Source: Sphagnum compactum (lineage: Eukaryota). From it: a DNA stretch of 64,000 nt. Made by a program: the position numbers and the translations under genes. Under the pieces are notes generated by a model. The model was not told where the DNA came from. It ran no database searches and saw only the letters and a list, made by a program, of their open reading frames with translations. Shown piece by piece: positions 2,720-25,200 of the stretch (the stretch's first letter is position 1; every line of letters starts with the position of its first letter). The DNA lies in the NCBI GenBank assembly GCA_965153455.1, contig OZ234493.1, positions 7,988,213 through 8,052,212 on the forward strand, read 5' to 3'.

Positions 2720-3960
2720 TGCAAATGGTGTATTGCATTCAAATTGTTTCCCTATTTGGAACTAAAGTCCCTTTGAGCCAAGTAACAACATAGAAAATTT
2801 TCTTTATGAATCAACCAAAAATGAACACCTTAGTCCGAAGGTGAGAAGATCAATAGGTTAAGTGCAAATGTGAACCTCATTGTTGACCATCGAACTACAA
2901 TCCTCCAAATCTTTAGCTAATTACAAATCATCATGAAGAAGAAATAAACATATTATCTATTATATAATTACATAAGTACTTTAATTTATTTTGTGCACTT
3001 AGGGAAAAACCATGTTTTGGCCAATATTTCTTCCAATAGAGGCGTAAAACATCCCATATGGCATCCATTAGAACTTCAACCTCAAATCAACATAATGTTT
3101 GCCCTTGAAAATTACCATCACAACATACATTGTAAGCCAACAAGGATGACAACAAAAAATGAGTAAATTTGGCCATCCACATTAGGAAGCTGACTTAGTG
3201 CATAATTATGCACATGGTCCTTCCATGTTTGACCATCTTAACCTTTGGACAATAGCACTTAGCAAAGTAACACTTTCCGCACATGTAAAATAATACATCC
3301 CACAATCACATCCAATGTAATGAATATCATATACTATAGATGCACATAATTTCTAGATGACTTAAATCTACAAATTCAAAATCAACAACCACCTCCTCAA
3401 ATAATGACATAACACAACATATCTCGATGTCAAGTAATTGTCAAATTTTTCATAGCCATTGGCATTATACATCGGAACAAAAGTGTTTGTTGTTCACATG
3501 CTTGAAACCACACATTCAAATCATCCAGATTACTACCATATTTCGTCAGATTGAAGTTGAATTAGCTCATGGCCAAAGAATAGAAAATATGTTGAAAATG
3601 ATGTAATAGAAACTTGCCAACTAAACGTATACCCCAAAACTAACCATGGTCATTATAAATTTTGATATTTAATATGACCTTTTTGAAAGTCATATGTACA
3701 CACTTCATTTCATTGTCCGCACCATTTGTTCAACTAAGTCATTTGCTTTAATGGTTTCACGAATTAAACAATGATCGATTAGAATTTTTACACACATTTG
3801 AAATTTCCCACGAAATTTTGCATTTTGGTTCCAAGGGCACCAAACTTTTTAAACACTATGTTTATAATTGCAAACATAGTTCCCTTATTACTATGATCCA
3901 ACAATGGCACCAACTTTAGCTATTTTGAGAAATGCTCAATTATAACCAAAACATATTAAT
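2720..3960 (-). mobile_element. Degenerate Ty3/Gypsy fragment: integrase core and C-terminus, PHD finger and 3' region (same family as the 11.4-20.2 kb element)
   Basis: Minus-strand translation with stops and frameshifts gives YVLVIIEHFSK*LKLVPLLDHS...FQKGHI...PWLVLGYTFSWQ, then KDHVHNYALSQLPNVDGQI and GCHMGCFTPLLEEILAKTWFFPKCT (3066-2992). Downstream DNA aligns by eye with 19910-20190. Confidence 0.8.
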
Positions 3961-7262: not shown

Positions 7263-9199
7263 CGCGATCATAATGATTGGTTCAGGTGGTTTGCTTTCAG
7301 TAATCTCCTACCTATTTGCAGTCCCAGTTTTTGTTTTATTGTGGGGTTGGAAAAAAAAGAAAAAAACTAAACTTGGATGTGAGAAATATTTTTGTGGGTC
7401 ACATACTGAGCATCTGAGTGTTCTGCCAAATATGGTTTGCCCCGGCAAAGAGGGCACTTTTAGTGATCATGATGCTTTTGGCGACTTGAGTCATGATTTT
7501 TCAAACGAACATTAACTAACTTACCGAGAAATTTGATATTTTGAGCATTTTGAGGGAAACCCCCAATCTCAGTTGGACTAACTTATGTCTTTTAATTTGA
7601 AACCTCTAGTTCCAATCAGGAGTTTTTTTGTGCTGAAAAAAATTTCACCATTTTCTGAAAATAATTAGAAAAGGAAAATTCTGTCAAATTTTATCTTTAA
7701 ATTTTTTAAAAACATAATTTAAATTTTTTTTAAAATTCGCCAAAAATCACCACAACTGCCTACAACATGAAAGGTGCTTGAGGTTTTTCTACTTTCATAT
7801 TTTGAATATTACCAAGTTTGGTTAAATATTCCTACGGTTGATCACCACTTGAGCACAACCATAGAATTGAAAAAAAATTAAATTAAATGGTTCCAATCCA
7901 TTATCCTTTAAATTTTTGATGAACCCTGATAAAGTTCTAAGCTCAGGTTTTCACATTCCTAAACCCCCAATATTTGGCCATAAAAAATAATCCAAAGCAA
8001 GTTCAATTTGAAAACTGGGTCCAGTTTTTTCAGTGCACCTTTGGAGAATAATTACAATTTTTTGTACAACAAATTAAAAGTACAATAATACTGAAAAATA
8101 TAACTTAATTGGGACATTTTCAAAAAAATTATATATACAAGTTTCCTCAGAAAAATGGAATAAAACAAAAGTAAATAATCATTTCACCATCCAAAATCCA
8201 ATACATTTGATTTTTCCTTAGTTTCATGCTTGGCCCACAACTCCCAACAAAGACAACTCTGATTGAAACCCCTTTTGTAAACATAGAAACAGCCTCCCCA
8301 AATCCAACAACAAAAAAGTTTCCCAAGATTCATGTGGGTCAGAGCTAGAACGATCTACTTGGGACAAAACAACACTTTAAAGGAAAATTGTTGTGCAAGT
8401 TGCCCACCCACCAAGGCTCAACTTGGAAGATTCATTCCAACTACAAAAACACAAAAAAGTCTTGTCAATTGTCCCCATTCTAGGGCATTGATTTGTGGTT
8501 CAACAAAGATTTATATGACAATGAAACAAAAAAAAAAAACACAACAAAGGAAAGGGGAAGAGACAATTGAAAGAGAAAAATATGGGAATTCAATGAGAGT
8601 CTCTTCTTGTGTAGGCATGGCAAGTTGCTTAGAGATCGATAGCTTAGATAGCTAATCCTCTCACGTTTAAGGTGTTCTTCTTCATAGTGTTTTGTGGTTA
8701 GGTAGAACTATTGATTGGTAGCATTTGCAAAGCAATTCTATTGTGGAAAAGTGTTGCCTCCACTAGGGTTTTGGGTTTAAGACCTCAAGCTATTTGTCTT
8801 GGTGTAACCCAATCTTTTCTTCCCTTTCTATTTTATAAGAATCTTTGGTAGTAGCTCTTTTCTTGAGCTTTAATTGTTTGTTCCTTTTATCAAAGTGTTC
8901 AATGTTTGCCCCCTTGACAACTTCCAATGAATGACATACCTATCATACAAGGATCTCTCTAATCCCACCCAATAGCCCTACCACCTCTGCTCGAGTTAGC
9001 ATCCCTTTCAAGGAATCACACCTAGATGGAGGATGGAACAATTAGGGAATTGCAAAACGTGTTGGAAATTCTAAGGCAAGGCTTGTCATATTTAGTGAAA
9101 TACATCTCAAATTTCAAATCTTTGAACAACTTCCTAAAAGATACTATTGGAACCACATAGGTTTGATCTTCAAGGATCATCTTTCAATTTCAACTACCA

Positions 9200-10575
9200 A
9201 ACTAGACATGTTGGTGATCAAGAACAAAACTACTTATCATATAGAACACATTGTTATAGCAAGTTTTTTGGGAAGTAGATTGCTTAAACTTCATTTCGCA
9301 AACTAGATAACTTATTTCAACCTTCTAATTCCTATAGGAGGAACCAACCTCTTCATGGATGTGAGGATAAGTTTTTATTACATATATTCATTAAACATAG
9401 AGGCTACAAGATACATCATCATGTTATCCCCGTTTCAATTTTCCTATGTACAACAATCTTCCATATGTGGACCTCAACTTTCAACTTGGATTCTCTAATG
9501 AGACCTAAGTTGCCCATTTGGATTTCATCACAAACGTTGCCATTGGAACTAAAACCAATTGAGGTTGCCATTGTGGGTCAAATTGGATCAAGGCTCATTC
9601 ATGATTGGGGTTCCTAAAAAAATAAAAAAGATATCATGATTCTTTTAAACCCGGTTTTAAAAATAATATTTACATGAATCAAATTTGAGTGAATTTTTTT
9701 GAATGGTTCAAACTATGATAATTCATGTGGTGGTGAGGGTTTTTTCACATGTATAGATTGGTGTGCATACAAAGTTTGGTTCAAACCTAAAAATGTAAAA
9801 AATGTTTGAATAAGCTTGTATGGACAATTTGATTTTTTTTTGGCATGTTTATTTCTTGCACATGTGACCCACATTTCATATTACAAATTAAAAACCTAGT
9901 GAATACTAAAATTCAACCAAATGGCCCCAAAAAAATTCCTTCGTTAGTTTAGAAAAAATGTTGCTTGCAATTACTTTTAATTGCAAAAATTGTTTACAAA
10001 TGATAATTTTTCTTCTAGTGCTTACAACCCTAAACATTGAATTTTATTGCTTTCAAAATTCTCATATGATTTATTATGCAATCACATGCATTTAATGAAC
10101 ATGACCATCCATAGATGTAAACACTATTTATTTATAAAAACAATTTGACACCAATTGCATCACTTAATGCATTTCTTTTGATTCCTTTCATGAATAGGTG
10201 AAGTTTGAACACCTAATATAGTTAGTTTAAAAGACTCAAAATGACGTTTATATAGTGTCCAAACTATTTTTTAATATTCTTATTAATTTAACATGACATC
10301 ATTTCATTCATTGGCATATGACAATCCATTACAATAACAATGATGCAAATAGAAAAGAAGTCCAAAGTTGTCCTTTGGAATCCTTTAAAAATTAGGCATT
10401 CCTTTTTAATACCCCAACCATGAATGGACCCATTAGTGTTGGGTTTTGACATCACAAACAAATTCAAAAGGGTATGAGGTTTTGTATTATGTTAAACCTT
10501 AAAAAAGGTTGGGTTACAAAAGTGCACCTAGCAAACATTAATGAAATAATGGCACATATTTGTGTTGATTATGGG
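9200..10575 (+). mobile_element. LINE (L1-type) ORF1 relic, DUF4283-like, interrupted by a TIR element
   Basis: Translation gives IVIASFLGSRL...IFHMWTSTFNLDSLMRPKLPIWISSQTLPLELKPIEVAIVGQIGS | VLGFDITNKF...RFCIMLNLKKGWVTKVHL...ICVDYG, the W-x-P/PxWI-x-LPL/IG-x-VLG-x-D pattern of plant LINE ORF1. The frame is restored when 9591-10431 plus one TSD copy is removed. Confidence 0.6.
9591..10431. mobile_element. Non-autonomous TIR DNA transposon inserted in the LINE ORF1
   Basis: Imperfect ~22-bp TIRs: AGGCTCATTCATGATTGGGGTT versus reverse complement GGGTCCATTCATGGTTGGGGTA. Flanked by ATCA/ATTA. Confidence 0.7.
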
Positions 10576-11017
10576 GAAAACCCATCCTTGGGTGGTACCA
10601 TTAGGAACCACCCCACCAAATTCCAAGGAATGGTGGACCTAGTCTAATTTAATTAAAGAATTTTAATCTTTTAAAAGAAAGAAAATTTGAAAGCTGATTT
10701 GCACCACATGGGCTTTGTGTTCCCCATATATAATATATATATATGTAAATTTGTAAACACCTACATAAGTCAAACAAGTAAAAAATGAAATGTTCATGCT
10801 ATGATGATGGTGTTTTTGAAAATTTACACCCCTTATCATGAAGTGTCAAGTTGCACCATTTGTTTTCTTTTTGGTTTATTAATTATTGTCACTAGGGTAT
10901 GGCCCCAATTGTTGATTGAAACAAAAAAAATGGAAATTATCACAAATTTATAAACATGAATCCAATGGCCTTTCAAGACCTCTTAGTCTTTACCTTAGGG
11001 GGTTAATGTTGCAGATA

Positions 11018-11168
11018 CACTAAAAATGCCATTTTATGACTAGTCCTTATTGATTATGCGAATCGTTTATGGCCATTGTTATTGATTTGGATTTGTCGTC
11101 TATGCCATTTTTAATCGCTTATCCACTTGTAGTCATATAGGACTAATCATAAAATGGCATTTTTGGTG
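11018..11168. mobile_element. 151-bp MITE with CAC(T/C)A termini and TA flanks
   Basis: The left arm CACTAAAAATGCCATTTTATGACTAGTCCT pairs with the right arm AGGACTAATCATAAAATGGCATTTTTGGTG. TA on both sides. Confidence 0.85.
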
Positions 11169-11579
11169 TAATGTTTGAATTTGATAATCAGTTTTTTTTT
11201 GTTTGTCTATGGTAATGAAACCAAATTGATGGCTCATAAACCACATTTGGTGTCTTCATAATGTGCCTAAGTTTTGTTGGCCTTGTGAAATGTTTTTGTG
11301 CATGTAAATGACTTGAATTAGATCTAGGTTAAGCTCATAGGTTCAACATTTCAATCTATGGTTAGGGGTTGCCCATATTTAGGGTTAAAGTTTAGTATGG
11401 AGGTGAGACATGATTCCATAACAAAGGATATGGTGAAAGGCACTCGTGGGGTTATTAGGCAAGGTGTGATTCATACCACCCAAATTGCCATCATCATCTA
11501 AAAAAGATTCTTAAAATTTTAATTTGGATACAAGTTTGATCCAATTCACCATTCCATTGTTGTGGGACATGAAGGACAT

Positions 11580-12663
11580 TTGGGGAACCACCAAGGGTTT
11601 CATTGATATTTGGAGTGGTGGGCACCATCAAGCTAGATGATTTCATCCAAGAATTTAACAATTAATTTGATATGAAATAGATACACAATCCTTAGATATT
11701 CACACTTTTCATGACATGGAAAAGTTTGTTTTAACATTTAAAAGGTTTGCCTATGGATGATTACCATGAATTTAGCCACACCCATGAGGTTAAAATCAAG
11801 GAATGGTAAGTGTACTAGTCATGAGAAATTATGTTCCCATCACCAAGGGTATTGTGGCCCCAAGTGCTATTATGATTTTGGTACAACAATGATAATTCCT
11901 AATAACCATTTAATTAATGGAAGTGAAATGTTTATGGAAATGGAAGTGTTAACTATACAACTATTGAAAGTGGTGGTACCAATCCTTTCAATAATACATT
12001 AGGTCTTTTGTAGACATTTGACTTATTGTGCAATTCTTTTACGAGTTGTGAAGAAATGAACAAAGGGTCTATATATAAAAACTATGTGGTTTATAGGAAC
12101 TCCAATGTAAACCACATGAAAGCTTGTGGGAGGCTTATGCCACAAATGAAGAGATTAATCACCATGACATAATAAGTCATAGAAAAATAATTTGTCTAAT
12201 TTTGGTATGGGATTCTAGATGAGGAGCTTCAATGTCAAGTGCATTATGTTATGTTACTCTAGCCCACACAACCCACATTGGCAAGTGTGTTTTAGTTCTT
12301 GGAATGTACCAAAATGAACATGGTGGGAGAATGTGTGATGATTCTTGGGTTTAGTAAAGACAACTTGAAGAATTTCTCAATATTAGTGGCTCAGTAGCCA
12401 TGTGGCCAAATAAAGTTACGGCACCAAAGACCAAGGGGCCAAATAGGAACCAAGTGATGCCTCCTCATCATATTCCATTGAGTAAAAGGGGGGAAATAAG
12501 TGTTGGAGGTGCGATGGACCACATAAAAAACATGAATTCCCTAATCCCTTTCAAGCCGCCAATGACCACCTCCAACCCTAACTTTAACCAACCATGTTCC
12601 CATTGCTATACATATGGACATGACGAAGATCACTATTTCACATTGCATCTGGAATTACAATAG
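11580..12663 (+). pseudogene. gag relic with a degenerate CCHC zinc knuckle
   Basis: LDDFIQEFNN*FDMK...WKSLF*HLKGLPMDDYHEF, then PCSHCYTYGHDEDHYF (C-x2-C-x4-H-x4-[C>Y]) in ORF 12400-12663. Confidence 0.6.
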
Positions 12664-13710
12664 GGCTAGTAAAAACTTGCCAATGTTAATAAAAATCAAG
12701 GTTTTAGGATAGGTCAAAAAAGGAAAAAGGTGATCAACAAGGGGTCAATGACCAGGTCAAGTCCAAACTAGTCTAACACCATGGAGGCATTTCCCCACTC
12801 GTAGGTTTTAATCACAAGCATGGTAGCCCAAGTGAAATTTAATGCATTAAGGTTAAGGAAATCAAATGAAAGAAAAAACAACCCATGTTTTAGTTCAAAT
12901 GTTGACCTTGGATAATTTTTGTGGAGTCAAATTTTAGGCCCATTGGCTCTTGATGAAAGGACATCCAATATTTGAAGAGATCGTGTGTTTAAGGTAGTGA
13001 GTGGAATCCATGTCAAAGTTTCAAATCCAATCAAAATGCTTTCAATGGTTGCACTAATGACAAGAATTGATATTCAAGCACTAAAACCATGAGGCATTGA
13101 CAAAAAATTGTATCCTTAACACGGGGAGGCTCAATGTTAAATGTGCTTATCCTAATCATTGGTAGACATAACACTTAACCTTATGCAGGCGTTGATTTCT
13201 ATTGAAATGTTAGTGATGTCAAGGAAAACACCTAGTTCAAGTTTTCTAGTGTAGGATGAAAGTTTCCGTTTTGTAGAATTGAATTACATTACATCGTACA
13301 ACTTCTTGTTGCATAAAGTTAGCAAAGTAGTGATTTCAAGTTTCAGCCACTCAATCATACCTCCTTTTCGATGAAGAAAAAATTTGAATTGATAAAGGAG
13401 TAACTAATAGTTTATAAAAACTTTTTTTTTTTTATAAACTAATGTTATAATAATTCGTTCTTGGATTAAAATTTAGTTGGGAAGAATGACATTTGAAATC
13501 ACGATTTCTGGCATGAGAAATCAACACTTTAACCAATTAAACTCTTTTTCCAAACATAATAAATCATCATAGATAATTTATCATGATCTTTTCATTAGAT
13601 TGGCTATATATGTTAGTATAAATCCAAAAGTCAAAATTATTTTTCCCAATTTCATTCAACTTTTACAAGGAAGAAAATGACATGAAGTCACAAGGTTAAT
13701 GTGGCTAATA

Positions 13711-13911
13711 GCCCTGCGCAATAAGGCAGTGCGGCTTTCTTTGCATCAAAAGGCACTTGGCAATAAAAAGGTTAGGCAACTTGTGACCTTGCATGTTTTG
13801 GTCCCATTATTGCATAATGACATCAAAACATGTGAGTCTAGATTTTTTTTAAGGCAAAGCCTTTCAACTTCTACTTACTATGTCAATAGAACCTCACTCC
13901 TTGTGTGGAAC
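13711..13911. mobile_element. Possible small TA-flanked MITE nested in the Gypsy element
   Basis: TA|GCCCTGCGCAA ... TTGTGTGGAAC|TA. The termini are inverted repeats once C>T/G>A changes are allowed. Confidence 0.35.
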
Positions 13912-14356
13912 TAGGGCACCTAAAACGTCCACATGGCGCAACATATATAATCGTTTTTTTTGTTTTGCATTTGTCACTTTCCTATGTTTTCTTCAATTGT
14001 TCTTTTTCCAAAAAGGCACTAAACATTTTTTGGGGGGTCGTAACAACTATGTACAAAGGACCATTATTTTCCATTGAAACATTTGACATCCTTGGTATTC
14101 AACTAACAACAATGTTATGCCTCATTGTCATTTTATGTGAAAGTGGGGGAACGCCAAGAATGGTGGCCACATCAAATGAAGGTTTAATTAAAATTGGAGT
14201 TCCCCACAAAGATTCCAAGGTCAACCAAAAGACAATTTCCAATAATCAATCTTGGTATTTATCACCAAACCCACTATCCTCATGGAGGCTAGTAACAGGC
14301 CACCGGGATTGAGCCTGTTGGATACCAAAATCATTAAATGGGATATTCCCAAAAAT

Positions 14357-15190
14357 GGGATATGCCTATTAGAAATGTTTGGAAGCATTAGTTATGGGTT
14401 AGTTGTGATTTTACGGTCTAACATCCAAGTTCATAAATATCATTATGTGGAGAGGGAACCACAAACCAAACAAGCCTCCATGTGTCATACCATGATGTTG
14501 CAACAACATTATCCCAACTTGTTACCAACATTAGTCATATAGGGTGACCGACATACCCTATTGAACAACATCACATTGTTGGGGGTACTATATTTGGTTA
14601 GGATTAAGGGCCTATTGATTTGGTTATTTTACAATGGTTGTGCCAAGGTCTTTCACAAGTTGACACATGTCAAACACCTTTAGACCCTAAATTAGGCTTA
14701 TTTTGGGAATTGATTTAGATTTTACAATATTCGTAGGCTACACAAATGCGCCCATATGCATACTTGTTAAAAAATGTCCCACCATTTGAATAATCTCCAT
14801 TAGTTATGTTAGTAGGATTACAATAACTTTAGGTTTAGATCAACAAATTAATGTATATGTGAATGCTATAGTAGTCATTTTACATGCTCGTTAGTGCCAA
14901 TGAATGTGGATTAACCTAACACCACCATAGGTGATATAATGAACATATCAATTCATCTTTAGGTCACCTGCATGTTTAATGAATAACATACTAAATCCAT
15001 GACAACAGTCATGTTTAGATTGTCATGATGACCGACCACCTTTTGTTGTGGTCAATAAGGTTAGACTTCAATCTTCAACAACCCTATCCACATTTTTGAG
15101 TTTTCCCCTATGACATGCATTTTGTGATGGAGGCCAAAGGATGATTTGGGATTCTAATTCATTTAATGTGGAGGAGCCTAATGCGATGAA
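14357..15190 (+). pseudogene. C5 cytosine DNA methyltransferase (DNMT3-like catalytic domain) relic inside the retrotransposon pol region
   Basis: Motif I GICLLEMFGSISYG (14357, cf. LxLFxGIG); motif II-like YHYVE; motif IV GPIDLVILQWLCQGLSQ (14608-14658, cf. GPFDLVIGGSPC, with the catalytic Cys TGC kept at 14641); GLFWEL; motif VI YLLKNV (14761, ENV with G>A); motif VIII-like HAR*CQ*MWINL (14883-14918, cf. AHRARYFWGNL); ends EEPNA. Motifs IX-X appear to be deleted. Confidence 0.8.
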
Positions 15191-15249
15191 ATTGATTTAA
15201 TAATTATAAAAGGTCAAATGCATAAAACAAGATGGTTATTACATGATCA

Positions 15250-16620
15250 CATTGGATGTTTTGCCTTTAGTTTGAAGGAATTAAGTCAATTAAAAAGACA
15301 AGTGGTCCCAATCATATCGAAAAATGGTAATCCAATTTTAGGCAACATTATAGGCTCAATGTGGTGGAAAGAACCTTGGTCCAAGCTTAAACAACAGAAT
15401 TGCTAGTTGTTAGATGCTAGTTTGGTAGAATTATTTAAATGTGGATATGCTTTAATAATAATGCTACTAGCCAATAAAGAAAATTTTGACAATTAAATAG
15501 AATATTAGCGCATGTGAAAGTTATTATCCAATGAACAAGTGAACACACTTTGAGAAATGTTCCATTCCGTTATTGGAGGATATTTTTGACACCTTTGGGC
15601 AAATCGGCCAAAGTTTTTAGCACCTTAAACTTGTGGTTTGGTTGCCAATGAAGGAGGGTGACAAGGTCAAGATAACATTTTGAGAGATAAATCATGATGG
15701 GAAGGATTGTTTATTATACCAATGGAAAATTTGCCCTTTGGTTTGAAAAATATCCTTGCAAAATTCCAAAAGATCATGGATTGGGTGTTAGTAGGTTTTA
15801 GTTTTACTAAGTGTTAAATAAATGATATCGTGTAGTCATCAATTTGGCATTATGTGATCATATGAAACACCTATAAAAGGTGTTTAGGAAGCTTAAAGAA
15901 CATAACCTCAAGCTTCTTCTAAGCAAATATTGATTTTTCCACACTTAGGTGCAATATTGAAGCATATGATTTATCTAGGTGGGTTGGTGGTTTAAAAGGC
16001 CAAGGTTGAAGCCATTTCATAAGTTCCCTAACCATTGGATGTTAGTCAATTGTGAACAATTTTGGGCTTGTGTCATTATTTTCATCAATTTATCAAAAAA
16101 AATAAAAACATCACCAAACCTTTGATTTAGTTAACTTGGATCAACCAAAAGTACATTTGGGGTGAAACACATGAGTAAAGATGGTAGGAATTGAAGGATT
16201 GGTTCACTTTTATGCCCATTTAATTTGCAGCAATCCATTTGGTGCAACCTTTTTAATTATATATAGATTGAAACACCCCAAGCCTAGGGTTAGGAGCACA
16301 ACATTCACTTAACTTGACAATGATGGTTCAAACTTGGTTTACGCTAATCGGTCCTACAACAAGACAAAGGCAAAATATAGTTCATATGAGGGGGAATGCT
16401 TCATAATTGTTTAAGTTGTTTCATCATTTTAATGTTATCTTTATACTAGTTTTTTCACATTAGTTAAAGATCACCATCCACTCAAGTTTTTGTTCAAATT
16501 AAATTGTTTCACAAGAAAGTTAGCTAGGTGGGTTGTTATTTTGTAGGAATATGATTTTGACATATTTCATCGAATGGTAGGGTTAATCAAAACATCAATG
16601 GATTAAATTGAAATCCAAGT
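15250..16620 (+). pseudogene. Reverse transcriptase and RNase H relic (Gypsy)
   Basis: GCFAFSLKEL...YRLNVVERTLV...IPLLEDIFDTFG..AKVFSTLNL...EGDKVKITF...LPFGLKN...FQKIMDWVL...C*INDIV (YIDD site). RNase H: YANRSYNKTKAKYSSYEGEC...FTLVKDHHPLKFL...KLARWVVIL*EYDFDIFHR. Confidence 0.9.
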
Positions 16621-16779
16621 TCCAATGAGGAGGATACCACTAGGGCTCAAAGGCAATACTAGGATGGCATGCCTTTACATAACTATGTACCTTTTTGGGG
16701 TGTTTTAGGGATGGACCTCATATTAACATGGGTAATAGGGGTTCTCAGGATGTGGACATTGAGTTAAAGGGAAATAACT

Positions 16780-19700
16780 TTAGACATACATGAAAATGTT
16801 ATTGCATATTTACAAATAGGTGAAGTTTTGGTTGAATTGACACCTAAAGAATGTGATCAAGTTATGCATAAGGCTAAAAAATTCAAGTGAAATTGTAATT
16901 CCTTCTCACAAGTGTGGATGTATGAAAAAATGCAAGTTATGTTTTGCTTAGAACAATGTGAAGGCCTTGTGTAATATGCTCATGAACAATTGGGCCATTT
17001 TAAGGTTTGATGGACCTACAATTTGGTCCAAGTATATTGGTGGTGGGAGATGCAATTACAAGTTCAACAGTTTGTTTCCTGGTGTGTGATGTTTGACCAA
17101 TTGTGGGTGTCATTCAACACACTTGCATTTCACCTATAACCTTTGCCCATCATGGTTTGGATTTTGTCACCCATTGAATTTGATAATGCAACATAGCCAA
17201 TATGTTTTGGTTATGATTAAACAATTTTGAAATGACTAAAGTTGGTGCCATCACTGAATCGTAGTAGTCAAGGTGCTACCTATGTTTTTTTGGATAATGT
17301 ATTCATTAAGTTTGGGGCTCTAATCAAAGTACTAATGACCAAAATACAAAATTTTATTATGAATTCCAAGAGTTATGAATTAACACACTAATTGATCATT
17401 GCACAACTTCATGATATCATGTTGAAGTAGATGGGTTAGTTGAATAAATGGTGTAGATGGTGAAATCAGGTTTGCAAAAATATGGGTTCCAAAAGGGCCA
17501 TATTAGAGATTGGGATTTGTCAATATTATTGTTAGCCATGGGGTTATAGGTTTAATTAACAAGTTTTTTTAACATCTTTTTCACCATATTTTCTATTGTT
17601 TAATCATGAGTTTGAGTTACCAGCTTCAATATAACAAGATGCCATGGTAATAATGAAGTTAGATGATACAATTGTGTGGTTTTAGGCATGTGAACAATGA
17701 CCAACCTTGTTTTGACATGTAATGCCAATGGCTATGGAAAATCTAGTAATTGCTTAACATAAGGAAACATTACATTACGCCACTATTTGTGGAGGTGGTT
17801 ATCAACCTTGAGTTCATAAACAACACAAACTACATTGGATCATTAGAAAAAAATTGAAAATCAATGAGTGAATTTGAGACTCATTTATAATTGTAATGGC
17901 CACATGCGATTAAAAATAGCCTAGTTGCTTTGGACAAGTGTTATAAAACAATTAGTTGCAAAATATATGACATGGCCATGAAGTTGAAACTGTAGTTGCA
18001 AACCTTACAACTAGGCCAAAATTTCTCATCCATTGCCATGGATGATCTTTAGTATGACATGGAACCCCAATTTGTGACTACATTTGGGATAGTCACATGC
18101 TACCAAATGTGCCATTGATGGGTGGTTAGGATTTAACCACATGGTAATTTAAAAAGCCAATGGCCATAAAACATGTGACAATTTTCCATTTGTTCAAAAA
18201 AGATATATTATATACAGTAATTAAATATTAAAATTACAATTAAAATAATTATTTATTTTAAGTAATTAATTATAACCTATTCTAGGCTAAGCTAAGGTAA
18301 AATAGGTTAGCTAGCATAGGCTAAGTAGGTAGGTAGGATCCTATTTATTTTGTTGGGGGCAAGCCTTTTGATTGGTTCATCCCAAATGGCACATGCATTA
18401 TGTTTATAATGCATATTATGAATCTAGTCCATTCCTTCACCTACTTATTATACTTTACAAGTTTGAAATTGTAAACAAAAGACATGTGACAATTCTAATG
18501 AAAGGGAAATACTACAACACTACAACACTATCACATCTTTGTCTCATACAAAAACATTATCATATATTCACACAATAAAATATTTATTATTTTCACTAAC
18601 TATTTACTACCTATCCTACTTACTACCTACTACCTACAAATTAACCTACCATATTAATTAATCAATTAATATAAAAACATTATGACATATCCACAAAATA
18701 AAATACCTTTTGCTTAGCTTACTTACCTACGTACTACCTAATAGTACCCATCCTACTTATTACATATTACCTAGCCTAACTAATTAATTGATTAAGTACC
18801 TAACCTAATTAATTAATTAATTAGTATGAAAACATGATCACATATTCACACAATAAACTAATAAACCTACCTATTATCTAGTTTACCAATTAATTAATGA
18901 CCTAACCTACCAACTACCTACCCAACTTATGTAACCTAATTAGGTCTAACCTTCATAGCCTAGCCTATTATCTACACCTAATAAACTAGCCTACTATTAC
19001 TTAGGCCAATTAATTAAGTATGCAAGCTAGGCTAGGCTACCAATGTACATAGGCCTACTTAGTTTAATGTAACCTATTAAGCTTAGTTAGCTTAGTTTAC
19101 CAACTAGGGTATGATAACCTTTTCTAACAAACTATTAGCTATTAGATATTATATTATGGAAGACCCATGGATAATTGCAAAGAAGACCCATGGATGGGTA
19201 CATTGAAGGGATAATAATCCAATTGAAATAACAAAATTGTCCTATGTGGTCTATGTTTTTTTGTTCATGTGGTAGAATATACTATTGTAATTGAAAAACC
19301 TTTCATTTGTAGTTGCAAAAATAACTATATTATCATCCATTGATGAATGCAATCAAAATTGGATGACATTGTTCACTTTTCATTTACATTTTCAATGAAA
19401 ATCATATTAGTCGTAAGTTTCTACAACTAAAATTTGGTTCAACCCTTCCTATAGTTGCATATGCAACTACAACAAGTTGCAATTGCATGGACATGTAGGA
19501 CTAACACATTGCTAGTTGTAAAATCAGTTGGTTTGAACATTAGTCGCCTAGTAATCAAAAAAATATGGCCACAATGGACAACATTTCTTCTAGTGATGTG
19601 ATTGTAAAGGGTGTTATTTTGCATGTGAATATGGTTTTTACCTCTTGAAATGTTGGTGTTGGAACGCCAAGATGGTTAAACATGAAAATACCACATGCAT

Positions 19701-19918
19701 AATTGCGCATTGTGTCATTTTTTTGATGTGAAATGGTTAAATTAACATGTTGTTAATGGTCAACTTTCTTGACCTCCAAGGTATGTTGTTGCGTGCAATC
19801 TTCAAGGACCGCCACTATGTTGATTTATGATCAATGTTCCCAAGGGTGGCATATGGAATATTTTATGCCCCCATTATAAGAAATATTGTTCGAAAAATGG
19901 TTTTACTTTTGGTGCACC
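16780..19918 (+). pseudogene. Integrase relic with a C-terminal PHD finger, split by the insertion at 17841-19595
   Basis: HHCC region AHEQLGHF...YWWWEMQLQVQQFVSWC; core YVLVMI...LKLVP...FGA...DQNTKF...DHCTTS*YHVEVDGLVE*MV. After the insertion: KYHMHNCALCH and TATMLIYDQCSQGWHMEYFMPPL*EILFEKWFYFWCT (19808-19918). Confidence 0.85.
17841..19595. mobile_element. Non-autonomous CACTA/EnSpm-like element with a 2-bp AT target duplication
   Basis: Termini CATTAGAAAAAAAT ... ATTTCTTCTAGTG; AT at 17839-40 and 19596-97; internal ACCTA/CCTAG-rich repeats. The empty site TTACATTGGATGTGATTGT is present in the second Gypsy copy (3302-3320, minus strand). Confidence 0.85.
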
Positions 19919-21921
19919 AAGGAGATTGTAAACCTAGGTACCTATACCTATGGTTACATAAAAAGACTATCTTAATTTCTTTCTTTATGATGATTCACAA
20001 TTGATTATGGATTTGGGGGATAATAGTTAGGAGATTACTGATGGGGCACCTAGACTATTGATCCTTTCATCTTAAAAAAACTGAAGTGTCCATACATCGT
20101 GGATTTCATAACAAGTGTTATATGTTGTTATTTGGCTCAAGGAAACCTTAGCCCCAAATAAGGGGATGGTTTAAATATGATGCGCCAATTAAATTCTTTT
20201 AATGTTATTTTGTGAGATGTGTGAATAGTGATAGGTGTAGGTGCCAATATGATAGCACATGACAAATGCTTATATTGGTAGTCTAAACCAAAATTGATCA
20301 GCCATGTAAACCTTAAAACCATCAACTTGAAAAATTGAAATCTAAAAAATTAGACTTAACCCTAAAACCAAAATGTTTTTGTTTTAAAAATATGTTTAAA
20401 CCCTTTAAAACCCGAAATCAAGGTGTCATCCTTTTTATGAAAAGCACTAAACCTAGACCTAATGATTCTTCTTTAAAAAAAACCCCAACCCAACCAACAT
20501 TAATTTTTTCATAGCGGGTTGAAAAATAGTGAGGTGAACATAGAAACCCTTTTGCTATCATTTGACCAAATTAATTACAATTGGAATAGTGGGTGAGCAG
20601 AAGACATGGAACCGTACCCGTAGTAGTTCATATGGAATATGGTGTGTTCACCCTTTCATGGAGCATGTAATTTTAGTCCAATAGGTTCTACAAGTGAACG
20701 ACACACATGGAAATTAAAGAGATGGGATGACAATGAACTCGAAAACTTCTCAGGAAGTTGGATTGGGGAACTTCCTCAAAGAACAATGGATGAATTTTTT
20801 TAAAAAGTGATAGAGTATAGACATATGAACTATGAACCCATGGAACTTCCAAGGGGGTTGGGGACGCCGCAAGGAAGTTATATGCCAACTTGTTACCTCC
20901 CCTATTGAAATATTGGATTATGGTCTGGTGAACTTCCTTGGGAAGTTGGCCATTAGGCAATGGATGAACTGAAGGAATTTCTCAAAATGGGGGGAATAGA
21001 ACATTGGAGAACTCAGAGAAAGATGGCCACCATCTCCCTTTCCTTCAATTTGGACTTGGAGTCACATTTAATTCATTGCACCTGTCTAGTGTTTGCCCAA
21101 AAGGGGGGTGTCTGTCCTAGAAGGAATGATTCTTTTACTGGCGATATTTCGCCAAATTTTGACCTGAAAAATATGGTTTCAACCTATACAAAGGATTATT
21201 TTTCATGCAAAAGAAAAAACCCAAATTTGCCAGATTTCAAAGGGAAAAAATCCAAACCACCAGATTTTTATGATAAGTTCCAGTAGGTAGCTAAGAATAT
21301 AGAAAGATTATATTTCTTTTATACTTTTGTATCTAATAAAGTTATTCATAAAGTCACCCTCACTTTCACCCCCTATCCCCTCTTTCAGTGATATCCTGAA
21401 AGTAATCAAATTTTATCAAATCTCAGTATGATTTGTTCGAGGGGTAATTATATTAGTTGTACAGGTAGGAGCAGTGAAAATATATGTAGCAGCAATGGAG
21501 GCGCTCAAAAAATAGGTTATGAAACTCAGTTTGGGTCCCAGTTATTTCGTATTATAAAATTTCATTCCCAGTTACGCATTTGAAGCCCTATTATGCCAAA
21601 ACTGGCGGTTCTCACCCCCTAATCGCCTGACTTCATGGATAACTTTAATATGTTGCCAAATTTGGTTACATTGTTTTCAGGATGATCACCACTTTGACTA
21701 CATTGCTAGATCTTGTAGTTTATGGTCACCAGTCTAGCAATATCGAACAAAAAAATAAAAATAAATCGATAAATAAATTGTTACTTCTAAAAATTACAAA
21801 TACCCTTTTACAAGAGTAATTCACCATTTAGTGGAAATCGGGCAGCCTTAAAATTTGGCTTGAAACAAGGCAAGACATTTGGGTAAGGTCCCACTTGTGT
21901 GGACCTTTTGCAAATGTGGGA

Positions 21922-22242: not shown

Positions 22243-25200
22243 ATGGTGAGTATAATGACCAGCTTTTGTGGCTGGCTGGCTGGCTTGCTGGCTTGCTTGC
22301 TTGCTCCCTCCCAAATTTTAGATGAAGTTGGCATGATTTTTTCGGGCACCCAATTGGTTATTTGCTTGAATTGCAACAGAATTCTGATCTTTTTCTTATT
22401 TCCATCTTCACCATGGCAGCTGCATGCCTTTTTTTTAAAAAAAACTTCAAGTACAGAATTACAATTGATGACTTGCACTGATAGCTTTCAGGTTTCCAAT
22501 TGTGACATTTAGCCACAGAAAGTTTTAGTGGGTGGGTCAGAGTGCATTTGTTTTTATGAATGATCTCATCTTGTTTCTTGCTTTGTCTTCATCTATGGGC
22601 TGAATATTTTCACACTACTTCTTTTGTTTGTGAAAGAAGATTGAGAAGAGAGAGAGAGAGAGAGAGTAGTTGAATGATGAAAGATGCACAGGGGCACCCA
22701 CCCTTCAATTGTTCTTTGCTTGAATTGCAAAAGAATTTTTGCAATGTTCAGATTCTGATTTTCTTTAAATTCCTCATCACCATGGCCACACAGCATGGTT
22801 CTTACTTCAAGAATATAATGTACAATTGATAACTTGCTGGTAGCTTTCAGGTTTCCAATTGTGACAAGCCACAGATTTGGTGGTGATGAGACTCCAGAGT
22901 GAATTTGTTTTCATGAGGTCTTGTTCTTGCTTTGTCTTTGATGGGCTGATTTTCACACCACTTTTTGTTTGTGAAAGAAGATTGAGAGAGAGAGAGAGAG
23001 TTGGTACCCAATTGCTGAAAAATTTTTTGTTGTTGTTTGTCAATGTGGAGCAGTTGGGAAGCTTACAGACAGTTGCTGGCAACAGGAGCAATGGCCGCTT
23101 ATCTGCTCTTCACTCCCAGACACTTCCTCATGCTCAGCAGCAGCTGGTGGGAGATGGATCCCTGGACATTCATGGTCAACCATCTAACAAGGCCACTTCA
23201 GGACGTTGGAAAGCGGCTTATGTCCTAATGGGTGGGTAACTCCTGAGAACCCCAGAAAATCCTCATGTTCTAAAAGTTCGCTTATGATGACAATTGGTCA
23301 GTCCATCCCCTGCACTGCATGTACAGGAAGCTGATCAGATTGATGAAGTGGGAAAGAAGAAAATTCTTCAGAAGAAGTACTTATATATCTTCTGCTGAAA
23401 ATGCTGAGACTTCTTCTACTGTTATTGTTGTTGCAGCTACTGAGCTGTTGGAAAGAACTGCATACTATGGGATTGCTTTGAATCTTGTGACCTATTTGGT
23501 GACTGTACTCCACCAGGGTACTGGAGAATCCATCTCCATTGTGTATAACTGGTCGGGTACTGCTTGGATTCTGCCTTTGCTTGGAGGATTCCTCGCAGAT
23601 GCTTACTGGGGTCGCTATTGGACTATAACAGTATCTGCTGTGATTTATCTTATGGTGAGTGAGCCAAAAAAACCCATTTTTTATGTACAAAGAAAAGTTC
23701 ATGAATGTCCTTCCTCACAGTATTCTGTACCTATTACTGATGTTTGGCACAAAATAATTTGCAAAAGGTCTAGCTGAAAAAAGAGAATTATTGAAATTGT
23801 TGAAAATTGAAAACCATTCAGTTACTATCACAAATGCACAACACAAGATTTATTTTGCACACATATTCCTCAACTGTTGAACTTCTGGAAAAGTAAATTT
23901 GAAACTGCCAAACTTCATATTATTTTCTTTTATTTGGCAAACAAGTGCCCAAACATCAGTCATATTGTACCGTATTCTAGATTATGTTGAGATCTCTTGT
24001 AAAGAATCTATCTATGAAGGAAGGTAGTTTGTTTGTTAGGAGATCTCCCAAACCACAGTACCTCTTGCTGCATTCTTGTTATGGGTGAAAAGCCCTTATT
24101 GAGTAGGGGTGCAATTGGAGATGGTTCAGTGGTGTTTAGATTTATGTTGCAAGAGTTATCGAATATTGAACAATTTTGTCAAAAAAATATTTCAACGAAA
24201 TCAAACTAAATATTATGGGGAAATTTGGGCACACTCTTGATATTGTTGGAAAGCAATTGTTGCGTGATGAGTGAAATTTTGTTGGAGGTAAATCTGTAAT
24301 TCTCAGACCTAAGGTGAGGGGGAGAGATATTGAAATCTCTAGTAATAGAGATCTCTAGTAATTTTTGTCACTGAAAATTAATTTAATTTTCAAGTTTTAG
24401 AAAATTTCTGGAATCCACAATTGAACTCTATCATCAAGATTCTGTTCACAGTTGGGCCAAAGGCACACAGGCCACACTAGTGGCTATGGTGTGTTTGATA
24501 GAAAATGATTTTGCACTGTTGAAGATTTTGGAATGGAATTGTTTTTCTTGATGGGTGGGGTTGGTTCCTTCCTTCCTTTTCCTGTCTGCCTGCAGGGGCT
24601 GCTGCTGCTGACATTATCCGTGACTCTACATTCATTGAGACCTCCTCCATGCCCAACACTGGTGAATTGTGAACCGGCATCAACAACCCAAGTCAGCATC
24701 TTTTACTTTGCTCTGTATGTGATTGCCGTGGGAGTTGGAGGAATGAAACCGTGTCTTTCAGCATTAGGAGGGGATCAGTTCAACGAGGATGATGACTACG
24801 AGAGACCCATGAAACGCTCTTTCTTCAACTACTGGTGGCTTTCCATCGCTGGCGGCGGCTTAGTCTCCCTCACCATGCTAGTCTACGTCGAGGATCACGT
24901 CGGGTTTGGGTGGGGGTATGGGATTCCGACCGTCGGGTTTGGAATCGCGATTCTCATCTTTTTCTCTGGCACTCCTCGTTACCGCCACAAGCGCCCTTCT
25001 GGCAGCCCCCTCACACAAGTAGCGCAAGTCCTCGTTGCTGCTGTCCGCAACTACAATGTCGTTGTACCGTCTGGTGGCGCAAGTGAGCAGCTTTACGAGG
25101 TTTATGAGAGGGGGAAACGGAACCTTGTCCGCACCAATACTCTTCGGTAAGCTAAGCTGCTGTTTCGTCCATTGATTATTTATCAAAACTTCCACATTCT

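What the first reader, a model, noticed from the sequence alone, without database searches (positions are those of the whole stretch)
14357..15190. Gypsy retrotransposon carrying its own C5 DNA methyltransferase upstream of RT
Seen in sequence: between gag and RT, and on the same strand, are degenerate but correctly ordered C5-MTase motifs I (LEMFGSISYG), IV (GPIDLVILQWLCQ, catalytic Cys retained), VI (YLLKNV) and VIII (HAR*CQ*MWINL), with no evident introns. RT begins about 60 bp after the domain ends. Established: these motifs match the DNMT3-type catalytic domain, and DNMT-encoding retrotransposons have been reported in dinoflagellates and charophyte algae (de Mendoza et al. 2018), but they are not a standard feature of land-plant LTR elements. 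Inference: this lineage hosts, or hosted, a Gypsy family whose pol polyprotein includes a methyltransferase that could methylate its own cDNA or integration sites. This copy is dead and lacks motifs IX-X.
Basis: partly seen in the sequence, partly recalled or inferred. Interest (0 to 1): 0.92.

Follow-up and report, generated by a model that had tools for sequence, protein, structure and literature searches.

The report
Fossil methyltransferase-carrying retrotransposon in peat moss
A long-dead jumping gene in a peat-moss genome still shows the remains of its own DNA cytosine methyltransferase, which places in a land plant a kind of element so far described only in streptophyte algae.

Summary
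Window 14267-15197 (+) holds a decayed C5 cytosine methyltransferase domain. It lies in three reading frames, with 10 stop codons and at least 2 frameshifts, inside a dead Ty3/Gypsy element. An intact polyprotein from public data (P0002) matches it in three collinear pieces of 55.5, 45.8 and 37.0 bits; the best of 50 shuffles gave 23.9 bits.

The window copy itself gets no Pfam hit. Better-preserved sister copies pass PF00145 (38.5 bits, cut-off 22). A profile of the moss copies hits DNMT3A/B/C in 29 of 30 solved-structure matches.

The domain is part of the element, not a one-off capture. Fourteen distinct copies from metagenome contigs were recovered. Wherever the contig reaches the neighbouring domains, they show the same order: gag, protease, DNMT, RT, RNase H, integrase, PHD finger. 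So do intact proteins of Klebsormidium nitens (GAQ93235.1) and Closterium.

Some sister copies also have the A...B-A-B split repeats described for KnitGypsy-Dnmt3.

Host genes place the window in Sphagnum.

This copy is dead. Motif IV reads LC instead of PC, motif VI reads KNV instead of ENV, the protease and motif X are deleted, and almost no polyA RNA reads were laid on it. It is a new member of a known kind, and the first such element I could find for a land plant.

The parts
10998..20759 (+). Extent of the decayed Gypsy-DNMT3 element. The ends are uncertain. Homology to distant copies runs only from about 11294 to 20268.
   Evidence: About 90% DNA identity to locus L001 over 10998-20759, with gaps. 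Collinear translated matches to 14 distinct copies. No terminal repeat pair was found in the window.
11450..12700 (+). gag remnant with a CCHC zinc knuckle at 12595-12636.
   Evidence: The CSHCYTYGHDEDHY string lies in the ORF 12358-12663. Collinear with gag of the sister copies. No Pfam hit.
13233..13994 (+). Segment shared only with the closest copies (L001-L004). Probably a foreign dispersed repeat inserted into the element.
   Evidence: Absent from the other loci. Contigs over 13318-13921 have word depth 96-124 in X6 and 974-1789 in X9, against about 6-9 and about 38 for single-copy pieces.
13994..14261 (+). Conserved segment that lies upstream of the protease in other copies. In this copy the protease and the protease-DNMT linker (about 760 bp) are missing between here and the DNMT domain.
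   Evidence: L014/L016, L012 and L007 have about 770-880 bp between this segment and the DNMT start, against 9-100 bp in the window. That stretch holds LLDYGT, which aligns to the LLDSGA protease of P0002. P0002's protease finds nothing in the window.
14267..14590 (+). DNMT domain, piece 1: motif I (LEMFGSISYG), motif II (YHYVERE) and the segment up to motif III. One stop codon.
   Evidence: tblastn of P0002 residues 1258-1344. Alignment A2. Motif table. Stop count.
14608..14790 (+). DNMT domain, piece 2, in another frame: motif IV (DLVILQWLCQGLS, with PC changed to LC) and motif VI (YLLKNV, with ENV changed to KNV). Two stop codons.
   Evidence: 13 of 13 PDB hits are DNMT3B/3C at E 0.2. tblastn of P0002 residues 1371-1432. 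Motif table. Stop count.
14877..15197 (+). DNMT domain, piece 3, in the third frame: motif VIII (HAR*CQ*MWINL), the target-recognition region, the motif IX region and the first residues of motif X. Seven stop codons. The rest of motif X and a linker are deleted.
   Evidence: tblastn of P0002 residues 1470-1561. Alignment A2. Stop count. Five distant copies have 428-485 bp between the DNMT and RT matches, against about 0-6 bp here.
15190..16330 (+). Reverse transcriptase remnant with many stop codons.
   Evidence: Collinear translated matches to sister copies and to the RT of P0044, P0162 and P0012. No Pfam RVT hit.
16334..16552 (+). RNase H.
   Evidence: PF17917, E 3.7e-13, 50 bits.
16951..18341 (+). 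Integrase remnant. The H2C2 zinc-binding domain lies at 16966-17088.
   Evidence: PF17921, E 1.4e-4, 22.4 bits, below the cut-off of 25.5. tblastn of P0012 and P0044 integrase.
18341..19595 (+). AT-rich insertion with internal tandem repeats (18546-18938). It splits the integrase from its C-terminal tail.
   Evidence: Absent from L001 and from the distant copies. Self-matches.
19808..19924 (+). Decayed PHD finger at the C-terminal end of pol.
   Evidence: The homologous stretch of L018 hits PF00628 at E 4e-7, 30.4 bits (cut-off 24). The window frames give no hit. Coordinates. Intact relatives carry INT-PHD.
20167..20259 (+). B repeat (first copy) of the 3' B-A-B repeat block. A2 and B2 are not recognisable in this copy.
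   Evidence: 70-71% identity to the B repeats of L018 and L010. B-A-B blocks in L005/6, L010 and L018/19.
2750..3957 (-). Fragment of a second, related element (integrase and tail only).
   Evidence: 67-69% identity to 17199-17800 and 19669-20163 in reverse orientation. tblastn of P0044 integrase.

Best explanation
This is a dead, internally deleted copy of a Gypsy-DNMT3 retrotransposon in a Sphagnum (peat moss) genome. It belongs to the same lineage as KnitGypsy-Dnmt3 of the alga Klebsormidium nitens.

Shown: the family's polyprotein ran gag, protease, DNMT3-like C5 methyltransferase, RT, RNase H, DDE integrase, PHD finger. Some sister copies are flanked by split direct repeats in the order A...B-A-B. 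The methyltransferase is an integral, intron-less part of the polyprotein. It has been inherited with the element through many subfamilies.

Inferred: when the family was alive, the domain had the canonical catalytic residues. Sister copies still read GWPCQ, ENV and AHRxR. As proposed for such elements by de Mendoza et al. 2018, it most likely methylated cytosines on the element's own freshly made cDNA, or around the integration site. A new copy would then look like host-methylated DNA. The PHD finger on the integrase probably steered integration by reading histone H3 tails.

Shown: the window copy can do none of this. It has 10 stop codons and at least 2 frameshifts in the domain. Motif IV reads LC for PC and motif VI reads KNV for ENV. 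The protease and motif X are deleted. It carries two foreign insertions. Almost no polyA RNA reads were laid on it.
For: Window itself. Three collinear tblastn pieces to P0002's DNMT domain give joint E 3e-21, at 55.5, 45.8 and 37.0 bits against 23.9 for the best of 50 shuffles. Closterium proteins match at E 1e-12 to 1e-14, and K. nitens GAQ93235.1 at E 0.002.

Family identity. L010 scores 38.5 bits on PF00145 and L017 24.3, with a cut-off of 22. The profile of the moss copies (A2) against the PDB gave 29 DNMT3A/B/C hits out of 30, best E 1.4e-4. For the closest intact relative, P0003, all 29 PDB hits are DNMT3, best E 1.8e-10.

Integral part of the element. The 23 loci fall into 14 distinct clusters. 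In L001, L005/6 and L010, gag, DNMT, RT, RNase H, integrase and tail lie in that order. L007/8, L011-13, L014/16 and L017-19 show the parts of that order that the contig or the copy still holds. P0002's protease, linker and DNMT align collinearly to L010, L005, L012 and L014 at E 1e-47 to 2e-73. P0044 is one ORF reading GAG-PR-DNMT-RT-RH-INT.

Named relatives with PR-DNMT(-RT): K. nitens GAQ93235.1 and Closterium NIES-53, -54, -65 and -68.

Tree of 101 DNMT domains. The 5 moss rows form one clade (SH-aLRT 100). It is sister to P0002+P0003 (83). It lies on the side that holds all 13 rows with the PR-DNMT architecture, including Klebsormidium and Closterium.

Repeats in the A...B-A-B order occur in L005/6. 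B-A-B blocks occur in L010 and L018/19, and an A...A pair in L007/8. This is the arrangement stated for KnitGypsy-Dnmt3 in the Fig. 4c legend of PMC5890265.

Catalytic motifs are intact in sister copies. dN/dS between subfamilies is 0.17-0.64 over 16 pairs, median about 0.30.

Host. The NPF exon is 94-96% identical to proteins of three Sphagnum species.

Age. A second species label (X9) has single-copy-depth contigs over the element that differ by 3.8-6.5%. Flanking genes differ by 1.1-2.6%.

No polyA RNA. Depth is 0-1.9 over the element, against 11-17.6 on the NPF exons (X22).
Against: The window copy alone fails every Pfam search. The motif I piece finds nothing in the PDB.

The loci were fetched with the DNMT piece. 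They therefore cannot show how many copies of this Gypsy clade lack the domain.

The branch that separates the two architectures has only SH-aLRT 83, in a quick tree with midpoint rooting and no canonical DNMT3, DRM or bacterial outgroup.

The best PDB hit of the L010 piece taken alone is bacterial M.HaeIII at E 0.0038, not DNMT3.

The dN/dS control on near-identical dead copies gave 0.41, 0.61 and 1.06. The method is therefore biased low, and the sign of selection is only suggestive.

No A repeat and no second B repeat were found in the window.

Methylating activity is unproven for this lineage. The KnitGypsy-Dnmt3 domain gave no methylation in yeast, which the authors call inconclusive (PMC5890265 section 10).

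Orthology with X9 rests on depth and identity. No contig spans a junction.
Confidence: 0.9

Rival explanations
1. One-off capture. A piece of a host DNMT3 gene or pseudogene landed inside this single Gypsy copy and has nothing to do with the family.
For: The window copy is riddled with other insertions and deletions, so foreign DNA inside it is plausible. Bryophytes have a host DNMT3 (PMC5890265 passage; PMC6453930, search listing only).
Against: Fourteen distinct copies, at 65-92% DNA identity, carry the segment at the same place. The protease-linker-DNMT stretch aligns as a unit to intact polyproteins. The same order occurs in proteins of Klebsormidium and Closterium. No intron-like gaps were seen.
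Confidence: 0.02
2. Horizontal arrival. The family did not descend vertically from the streptophyte ancestor. It entered the Sphagnum lineage by horizontal transposon transfer from an alga or another organism of the bog, then diversified and died.
For: The nearest intact relatives, P0002 and P0003, come from metagenome contigs of an unknown organism. Their proteins look Ala-, Pro- and Gly-rich to the eye, unlike the AT-rich moss copies. The moss clade sits on a long branch of 0.81. No named land-plant protein stood among the 20 of the best 150 whose sources I looked up.
Against: The moss clade does not nest inside Closterium or Klebsormidium. Several deeply diverged subfamilies, at 65-75% DNA identity, exist in moss-like DNA. 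That needs a long residence. Only 20 of the 150 hits could be looked up for names.
Confidence: 0.3
3. Pseudo-enzyme. In the moss lineage the domain was already non-catalytic, for example a DNA- or chromatin-binding module, and was kept for a structural role.
For: Many relatives read EC instead of PC in motif IV. This holds for the majority of the 58 rows with the RH-DNMT-INT architecture and for the Closterium rows. KnitGypsy-Dnmt3 gave no methylation in yeast.
Against: The moss copies L010, L014 and L005 read WPC. L010, L005 and L007 read ENV. L010 reads AHRF and L005 AHCF at motif VIII. Their sisters P0002 and P0003 read GWPCQGHS, ENV and AHRLRL. The yeast result was called inconclusive, because human DNMT3B failed in the same assay.
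Confidence: 0.15
4. Chance resemblance of short motifs in AT-rich junk DNA.
For: There is no Pfam hit on the window. The PDB E-value of the window piece is only 0.2.
Against: Three collinear pieces score 37-55 bits, against at most 23.9 bits in 50 shuffles. Identity to sister copies that pass PF00145 is 44-90%.
Confidence: 0.01

Closest known systems
KnitGypsy-Dnmt3 of Klebsormidium nitens (de Mendoza et al. 2018, PMC5890265; passages and sections 10-11 read)
   Same: An intron-less DNMT3-like domain sits inside a Gypsy polyprotein. The K. nitens protein GAQ93235.1 shows the GAG-PR-DNMT order. It matches the window at E 0.002 and L010 at E 4e-34. The split repeats A...B-A-B are shared with some moss sister copies. 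Both lie on the same side of the DNMT tree.
   Different: The host is a land plant (Sphagnum), not a charophyte alga. All 23 moss loci examined are decayed, whereas K. nitens copies are reported to be under purifying selection. The moss domains form their own clade, closer to the unnamed P0002/P0003 (229 bits) than to the K. nitens protein (124 bits). I saw a PHD finger after the integrase in the moss copies. The figure was not available, so I could not check this for K. nitens.
PR-DNMT(-RT) proteins of Closterium spp. (NCBI CAI5973665.1, GJP34393.1, CAI7850249.1, CAI7911866.1; unnamed products)
   Same: They have the same domain order and lie on the same side of the tree. They match the window at E 1e-12 to 1e-14.
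   Different: Motif IV reads EC rather than PC. They come from Zygnematophyceae. My searches found no paper that describes them.
Gypsy elements with the order RT-RH-DNMT-INT-PHD (unnamed metagenome proteins such as P0012, P0016, P0022, P0030)
   Same: The DNMT-like domain is homologous (about 100-150 bits to the moss profile). They have a Gypsy backbone and a PHD finger after the integrase.
   Different: The domain sits between RNase H and integrase, not between protease and RT. They lie on the other side of the tree. Most read EC in motif IV. Their hosts are unknown.
SymbioDIRS-Dnmt3 and SymbioLINE-Dnmt of Symbiodiniaceae (PMC5890265)
   Same: They are retrotransposons that carry a C5 methyltransferase. 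SymbioDIRS-Dnmt3 has a DNMT3-type domain and A-coding-B-A-B repeats.
   Different: They have DIRS or LINE backbones. DIRS elements use a tyrosine recombinase, whereas this element has a DDE integrase. The authors regard them as independent acquisitions.
EpiLTRs of Cymbomonas and Euglena (bioRxiv 10.64898/2026.05.21.726589; passages read)
   Same: They are LTR elements that carry DNA methyltransferases together with a chromatin-reader domain.
   Different: Their DNMT is sister to DNMT4 and is appended at the 3' end of pol. They also carry an adenine methyltransferase and a chromodomain.

Membership tests
Gypsy-DNMT3 retrotransposons (KnitGypsy-Dnmt3 type) | A C5 methyltransferase domain embedded, without introns, in the Gypsy polyprotein | tested here: met
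   Three collinear frames in the window lie between the gag and RT remnants. The order is the same in the sister copies whose contigs reach the neighbouring domains (14 distinct clusters in all) and in the single ORF P0044.
Gypsy-DNMT3 retrotransposons (KnitGypsy-Dnmt3 type) | Gypsy domain set: gag CCHC, aspartic protease, RT, RNase H, DDE integrase, in that order | tested here: met
   In the window: the CCHC string, RNase H PF17917, integrase H2C2 below the cut-off, and RT by homology. The protease is deleted in the window. It is present in L010, L005, L012 and L014.
Gypsy-DNMT3 retrotransposons (KnitGypsy-Dnmt3 type) | Split direct repeats A-coding-B-A-B (Fig. 4c legend of PMC5890265) | tested here: inconclusive
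   Met in sister copies: L005/6 have A...B-A-B, L010 and L018/19 have B-A-B, and L007/8 have A...A. In the window only one B repeat is recognisable, at 20167-20259.
Gypsy-DNMT3 retrotransposons (KnitGypsy-Dnmt3 type) | Sequence kinship of the DNMT domain with the K. nitens element protein | tested here: met
   GAQ93235.1 against the window gives E 0.002. Against L010 it gives E 4e-34 and against L005 E 4e-28. It lies on the same side of the tree, but the branch support is only 83.
Gypsy-DNMT3 retrotransposons (KnitGypsy-Dnmt3 type) | DNMT domain kept under purifying selection, with conserved catalytic residues | tested here: not met
   The window copy has 10 stop codons, LC for PC and KNV for ENV. 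It is a dead member. Sister copies keep PCQ and ENV. dN/dS between subfamilies is 0.17-0.64, but the control gave 0.41-1.06.
C5 DNA methyltransferase (Pfam PF00145) | Score at or above the Pfam gathering cut-off of 22 bits | tested here: not met
   No hit for any window frame or piece. Met by its homologues L010 (38.5), L017 (24.3), P0002 (45.5) and P0003 (41.5).
C5 DNA methyltransferase (Pfam PF00145) | Ordered motifs I (FxGxG), IV (PC), VI (ENV), VIII (RxR) and X. The motif names are recalled from the literature on these enzymes. | tested here: inconclusive
   The order I, II, IV, VI, VIII, IX is kept. Each motif is degenerate and motif X is deleted in the window. The full set is visible in L005 and L010.
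DNMT3 clade (as against DNMT1, CMT, DRM or bacterial enzymes) | Closer to DNMT3 than to other C5 methyltransferases | tested here: inconclusive
   Profile A2 gave 29 DNMT3A/B/C hits out of 30 in the PDB. P0003 gave 29 of 29. For P0049 the top hits are DNMT3, followed by M.HhaI. The L010 piece alone hits M.HaeIII. No tree was built with canonical DNMT3, DRM, DNMT1 or CMT, because none could be fetched. There is no domain rearrangement of the DRM kind: the motifs run I to X.
DIRS retrotransposons | Tyrosine recombinase instead of a DDE integrase | tested here: not met
   The element has integrase H2C2 and rve-type homology. No tyrosine recombinase was seen. It is therefore not a DIRS element, despite the DIRS-like repeats.
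Chromoviruses (chromodomain Gypsy elements of plants) | Chromodomain at the C-terminus of the integrase | tested here: not met
   The tail holds a PHD finger instead (L018, PF00628, E 4e-7). No chromodomain hit was found in the window or the L018 tail.

The most novel reading that the evidence does not exclude
Gypsy-DNMT3 is not an acquisition of the Klebsormidium lineage. It is one ancient streptophyte retrotransposon lineage, with a protease-DNMT3-RT polyprotein, a PHD-tagged integrase and DIRS-like split repeats. On this reading it was inherited vertically through Klebsormidiophyceae and Zygnematophyceae into the first land plants. It diversified under selection in the Sphagnum lineage and only later died out. 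Intact sister elements (P0002, P0003) may still be active in an unsampled bryophyte or alga. Land plants would then have lived for a long time with transposons that wrote their own cytosine methylation.
Probability: 0.4. Interest if true: 0.75.

Novelty: new member of a known kind. Interest (0 to 1): 0.55.

Why it matters
Retrotransposons that carry their own cytosine methyltransferase turn the usual picture around, in which the host methylates and the transposon is silenced. Among green plants they have been described only for the alga Klebsormidium nitens, as an acquisition "in the K. nitens lineage" (PMC5890265). A 2019 opinion paper states that methylase-encoding transposons are absent from land plants such as tracheophytes (PMC6338049, passage read).

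The Sphagnum fossils, together with unreported Closterium proteins of the same architecture, suggest that the lineage is older and wider than that. They suggest that it crossed onto land, or that it moves between hosts.

The fossils give datable material for asking three things. When were such elements lost? Did they shape early land-plant methylomes? Is the host DNMT3/DRM history entangled with them?

The finding is not a new mechanism, and the copy in the window is inert.

Tried and rejected
Pfam on the three window frames, on 9 kb of each + frame, on the two window pieces and on the minus strand of 1000-10001 gave no PF00145. Nothing at all was found on the minus strand.

The word-indexed protein search with the window piece found only P0001, another decayed fragment. 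With the L010 piece it found nothing among 170 candidates. The exhaustive profile search was what worked.

No whole genome is held for this window. A genome-wide census of copies with and without the domain was therefore impossible.

An LTR search in the window found no terminal repeat pair.

I first labelled 12700-13500 as the protease by position. This was wrong. The true protease, homologous to P0002 residues 1011-1115, lies just upstream of the DNMT in other copies and is deleted here.

I briefly read ETFDILG at about 14060 as a protease motif. I rejected this after aligning L014.

The look-up of sequencing runs listed no RNA holder. That blank is not evidence on expression.

Summed contig word depths over the DNMT bin (about 8-9 times single copy in X6 and X9) hint at further copies at 80% identity or more. 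The tool warns that these depths are not copy numbers, so I do not use them as a count.

Whether L001-L004 are orthologues from other Sphagnum species or paralogues could not be settled. Their flanks do not match, but repeats interrupt them.

The dN/dS analysis is only suggestive, because the control pairs are noisy.

Supplements of PMC5890265 (alignments of KnitGypsy-Dnmt3, Ka/Ks) were not available. The figure with the K. nitens domain order was not visible either.

Literature searches for a moss or land-plant DNMT-carrying retrotransposon found none. The library lacks most subscription journals.
Full report
**1. What is in the window**

The window is AT-rich plant DNA (35% G+C) with intron-bearing host genes. 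An exon of its NPF/POT transporter is 96% identical to proteins of Sphagnum tenellum and S. troendelagicum, and 94% identical to S. fallax. Two runs labelled 'moss metagenome' share words with the region. The host is therefore a peat moss or a very close relative, that is, a land plant.

On the + strand lie the remains of a Ty3/Gypsy element:
- a gag CCHC knuckle at 12595-12636;
- RNase H at 16334-16552 (PF17917, E 3.7e-13);
- an integrase zinc domain at 16966-17088 (PF17921, 22.4 bits, below the cut-off);
- an RT full of stop codons between 15190 and 16330.

**2. The observation**

On its own the window is weak evidence:
- No Pfam search on it returns PF00145.
- The motif I piece finds nothing in the PDB.
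- The motif IV-VI piece finds 13 sequences, all DNMT3B or DNMT3C, but at E 0.2.

The decisive test came from relatives. The intact polyprotein P0002, found later, matches the window in three collinear pieces: 14267-14527, 14608-14787 and 14907-15185. Each lies in a different frame, and the joint E is 3e-21. The pieces score 55.5, 45.8 and 37.0 bits. The best score in 50 shuffles of the element was 23.9 bits.

The domain holds 10 stop codons and at least two frameshifts. Motif IV reads WLCQ where relatives read WPCQ, and motif VI reads KNV where they read ENV.

The rest of motif X and a linker are missing, about 430-485 bp by comparison with five distant copies.

**3. Is it part of the element?**

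A scan of metagenome contigs with the motif IV piece returned 23 loci. They fall into 14 distinct sequence clusters, 65-92% identical to the window over the domain. All are decayed: no ORF of 250 residues or more stands on the + strand.

Translated comparison shows gag, DNMT, RT, RNase H, integrase and tail in that order in L001, L005/6 and L010. L007/8, L011-13, L014/16 and L017-19 show the parts of that order that the contig or the copy still holds. L020-23 hold a DNMT fragment next to an inverted integrase.

Because the loci were fished with the DNMT piece, they cannot tell how many copies lack it. Intact relatives settle the architecture:
- P0002's protease, linker and DNMT align as one block to L010, L005, L012 and L014, at E 1e-47 to 2e-73.
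- P0044 is a single ORF reading GAG-PR-DNMT-RT-RH-INT.

A one-off capture of a host gene is thus excluded for practical purposes.

**4. What kind of methyltransferase?**

Better-preserved sister pieces pass Pfam's cut-off for PF00145. L010:4609-4899 scores 38.5 bits (E 1.2e-9) and L017 scores 24.3 bits, against a cut-off of 22.

A profile of twelve read-through pieces from five copies (A2) hits 30 PDB sequences at E up to 1. Twenty-nine of them are DNMT3A, 3B or 3C, with best E 1.4e-4, aligned over motifs I-VI.

The closest intact relative, P0003, hits 29 sequences, all DNMT3, with best E 1.8e-10. The Klebsormidium protein hits DNMT3C and 3A first and then M.HhaI.

Against this, the L010 piece alone finds only M.HaeIII. 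I could not build a tree with canonical DNMT3, DRM, DNMT1 or CMT. DNMT3 affinity is therefore well supported but not proven. The motifs run I to X in order, so this is not a rearranged DRM-type domain.

**5. Relatives elsewhere**

The exhaustive search of 1.84 billion representative proteins with A2 gave 1310 hits at E up to 0.001, and 51 at E up to 1e-30. Among the proteins returned, two architectures appear:
- (GAG-)PR-DNMT(-RT-RH-INT), as in the moss;
- RT-RH-DNMT-INT-PHD.

I could look up sources for 20 of the 150 listed hits. Those with names are hypothetical protein KFL_013780020 of Klebsormidium nitens (GAQ93235.1, GAG-PR-DNMT) and unnamed products of Closterium sp. NIES-53, -54, -65 and -68 (PR-DNMT, DNMT-RT).

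A quick maximum-likelihood tree was built from 101 DNMT domains. In it the five moss rows, the window included, form one clade (SH-aLRT 100). That clade is sister to P0002+P0003 (83). It lies on the side that contains all 13 rows of the PR-DNMT architecture. The branch between the two sides has support 83, and the root is only a midpoint.

**6. Further family marks**

The conserved tail after the integrase is a PHD finger: L018 hits PF00628 at E 4e-7, 30.4 bits. In the window it is decayed, at 19808-19924. The RT-RH-DNMT-INT-PHD relatives have one too.

Sister copies carry split direct repeats:
- In L005 an A repeat lies at 4254-4563, and a B-A-B block lies at 16168-16682. The A copies are 82% identical and the B copies 90%.
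- L010 and L018/19 show the B-A-B block.
- L007/8 show A...A.

This is the arrangement that the Fig. 4c legend of de Mendoza et al. 2018 gives for KnitGypsy-Dnmt3: repeats like a DIRS element, domains like Gypsy. In the window only one B repeat is recognisable, at 20167-20259.

**7. State of the window copy**

Besides the damage to the DNMT domain:
- It lacks the protease and the protease-DNMT linker, about 760 bp by comparison with L014/16, L012 and L007.
- It carries a probable foreign repeat at 13233-13994. High-depth contigs cover it, and it is absent from distant copies.
- It carries a 1.25 kb AT-rich insertion at 18341-19595.

Raw polyA RNA-seq reads of the same species label give depth 0-1.9 over the element, against 11-17.6 on the neighbouring NPF exons (X22).

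Contigs of a second species label (X9) cover 11271-20553 in four pieces at single-copy depth (37.7-41.5). They differ from the window by 3.8-6.5%, while flanking gene pieces differ by 1.1-2.6%. This fits an old insertion shared by two species, but no contig spans a junction.

**8. How it worked (inference)**

Sister copies keep GWPCQGLS, ENV and AHRF (L010), and P0002 and P0003 keep all the motifs. dN/dS between subfamilies is 0.17-0.64 over 16 pairs, with a median of about 0.30. Near-identical dead copies give 0.41, 0.61 and 1.06. Selection on the domain during the family's spread is therefore suggested, not shown.

The likeliest function is the one proposed by de Mendoza et al. for DNMT domains inside pol. 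On that proposal the domain methylates the element's own cDNA de novo, or the DNA around the insertion. The new copy is then taken for host DNA or lands in a chosen chromatin state (Discussion). They showed CG methylation in yeast for SymbioDIRS-Dnmt3 only. KnitGypsy-Dnmt3 gave none, which they call inconclusive.

A non-catalytic role remains possible, because many relatives read EC for PC.

**9. Known or new?**

The kind is known: KnitGypsy-Dnmt3, listed as 'streptophytes (Gypsy-DNMT3)' in a 2026 preprint and in a 2025 paper. The authors described it as an acquisition in the K. nitens lineage. A 2019 opinion paper states that methylase-encoding transposons are not present in land plants such as tracheophytes.

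Five searches of the held library found no report from mosses or other land plants, nor from Closterium. Most subscription journals are not in that library, and the supplements of the 2018 paper were closed.

I therefore file this as a new member of a known kind, with a notable extension of host range and probably of age. Whether it reached Sphagnum by descent or by horizontal transfer is open.

Noticed in passing
proteins P0012, P0016, P0022, P0030, P0033 and others: A large second group of intact Gypsy polyproteins from metagenomes has the order RT-RNase H-DNMT-integrase-PHD; P0015 also has a Tudor domain. It makes up 58 of the 101 tree rows. Most read EC instead of PC in motif IV. Their hosts are unknown.
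   Followed up: partly
proteins P0027, P0034, P0045, P0053, P0163, P0164: NCBI 'unnamed protein products' of Closterium sp. NIES-53, -54, -65 and -68 carry protease-DNMT(-RT) of the same lineage. My searches found no paper that mentions DNMT-carrying retrotransposons in Zygnematophyceae.
   Followed up: partly
window 13994-14267 and 15185-15192: The window copy and its closest relatives L001-L004 share two internal deletions that bracket the DNMT domain: the protease with its linker (about 760 bp) and motif X with its linker (about 430-485 bp). If L001-L004 are paralogues, a protease-less, non-autonomous derivative was itself mobilised.
   Followed up: partly
window 20840-21506; also 23508-24174, 26176-26842 and 27510-28843: These are very high-copy repeats. 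Raw-read depth is 32-142 summed over both orientation columns, against about 1 for single-copy bins. Many reads have loose ends at 21197, 21363, 21444 and 21507. Two of the repeats lie in introns of the NPF transporter gene.
   Followed up: no
window 2750-3957 (-): A fragment of a second element of the same family (integrase and PHD tail only) lies 7 kb upstream in opposite orientation.
   Followed up: partly
window 18341-19595: A 1.25 kb AT-rich insertion with degenerate tandem repeats (18546-18938) splits the integrase from the PHD tail. In all three frames the translation shows repeats rich in Tyr, Leu, Thr, Ile and Asn.
   Followed up: no
window 23274-26820 (+), 43948-45717 (-), 48177-51316 (-): The host genes are an NPF/POT transporter (94-96% identical to Sphagnum proteins), a chloroplast-type RNA-binding protein with RRM motifs, and a heat-shock transcription factor. 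The last two were named from the ORF translations only.
   Followed up: partly
window 7098-7262: Two tandem copies of an 80-nt unit, 95% identical, spaced 85 nt apart.
   Followed up: no
L005 4254-4563 versus 16267-16584; L007 4295-4548 versus 14746-14995: The A repeats of single copies are only 82% and 74% identical, and the B repeats 86-90%. If they were identical at insertion, these insertions are very old. About 2 kb of unexplained sequence lies between the 5' A repeat and gag.
   Followed up: no
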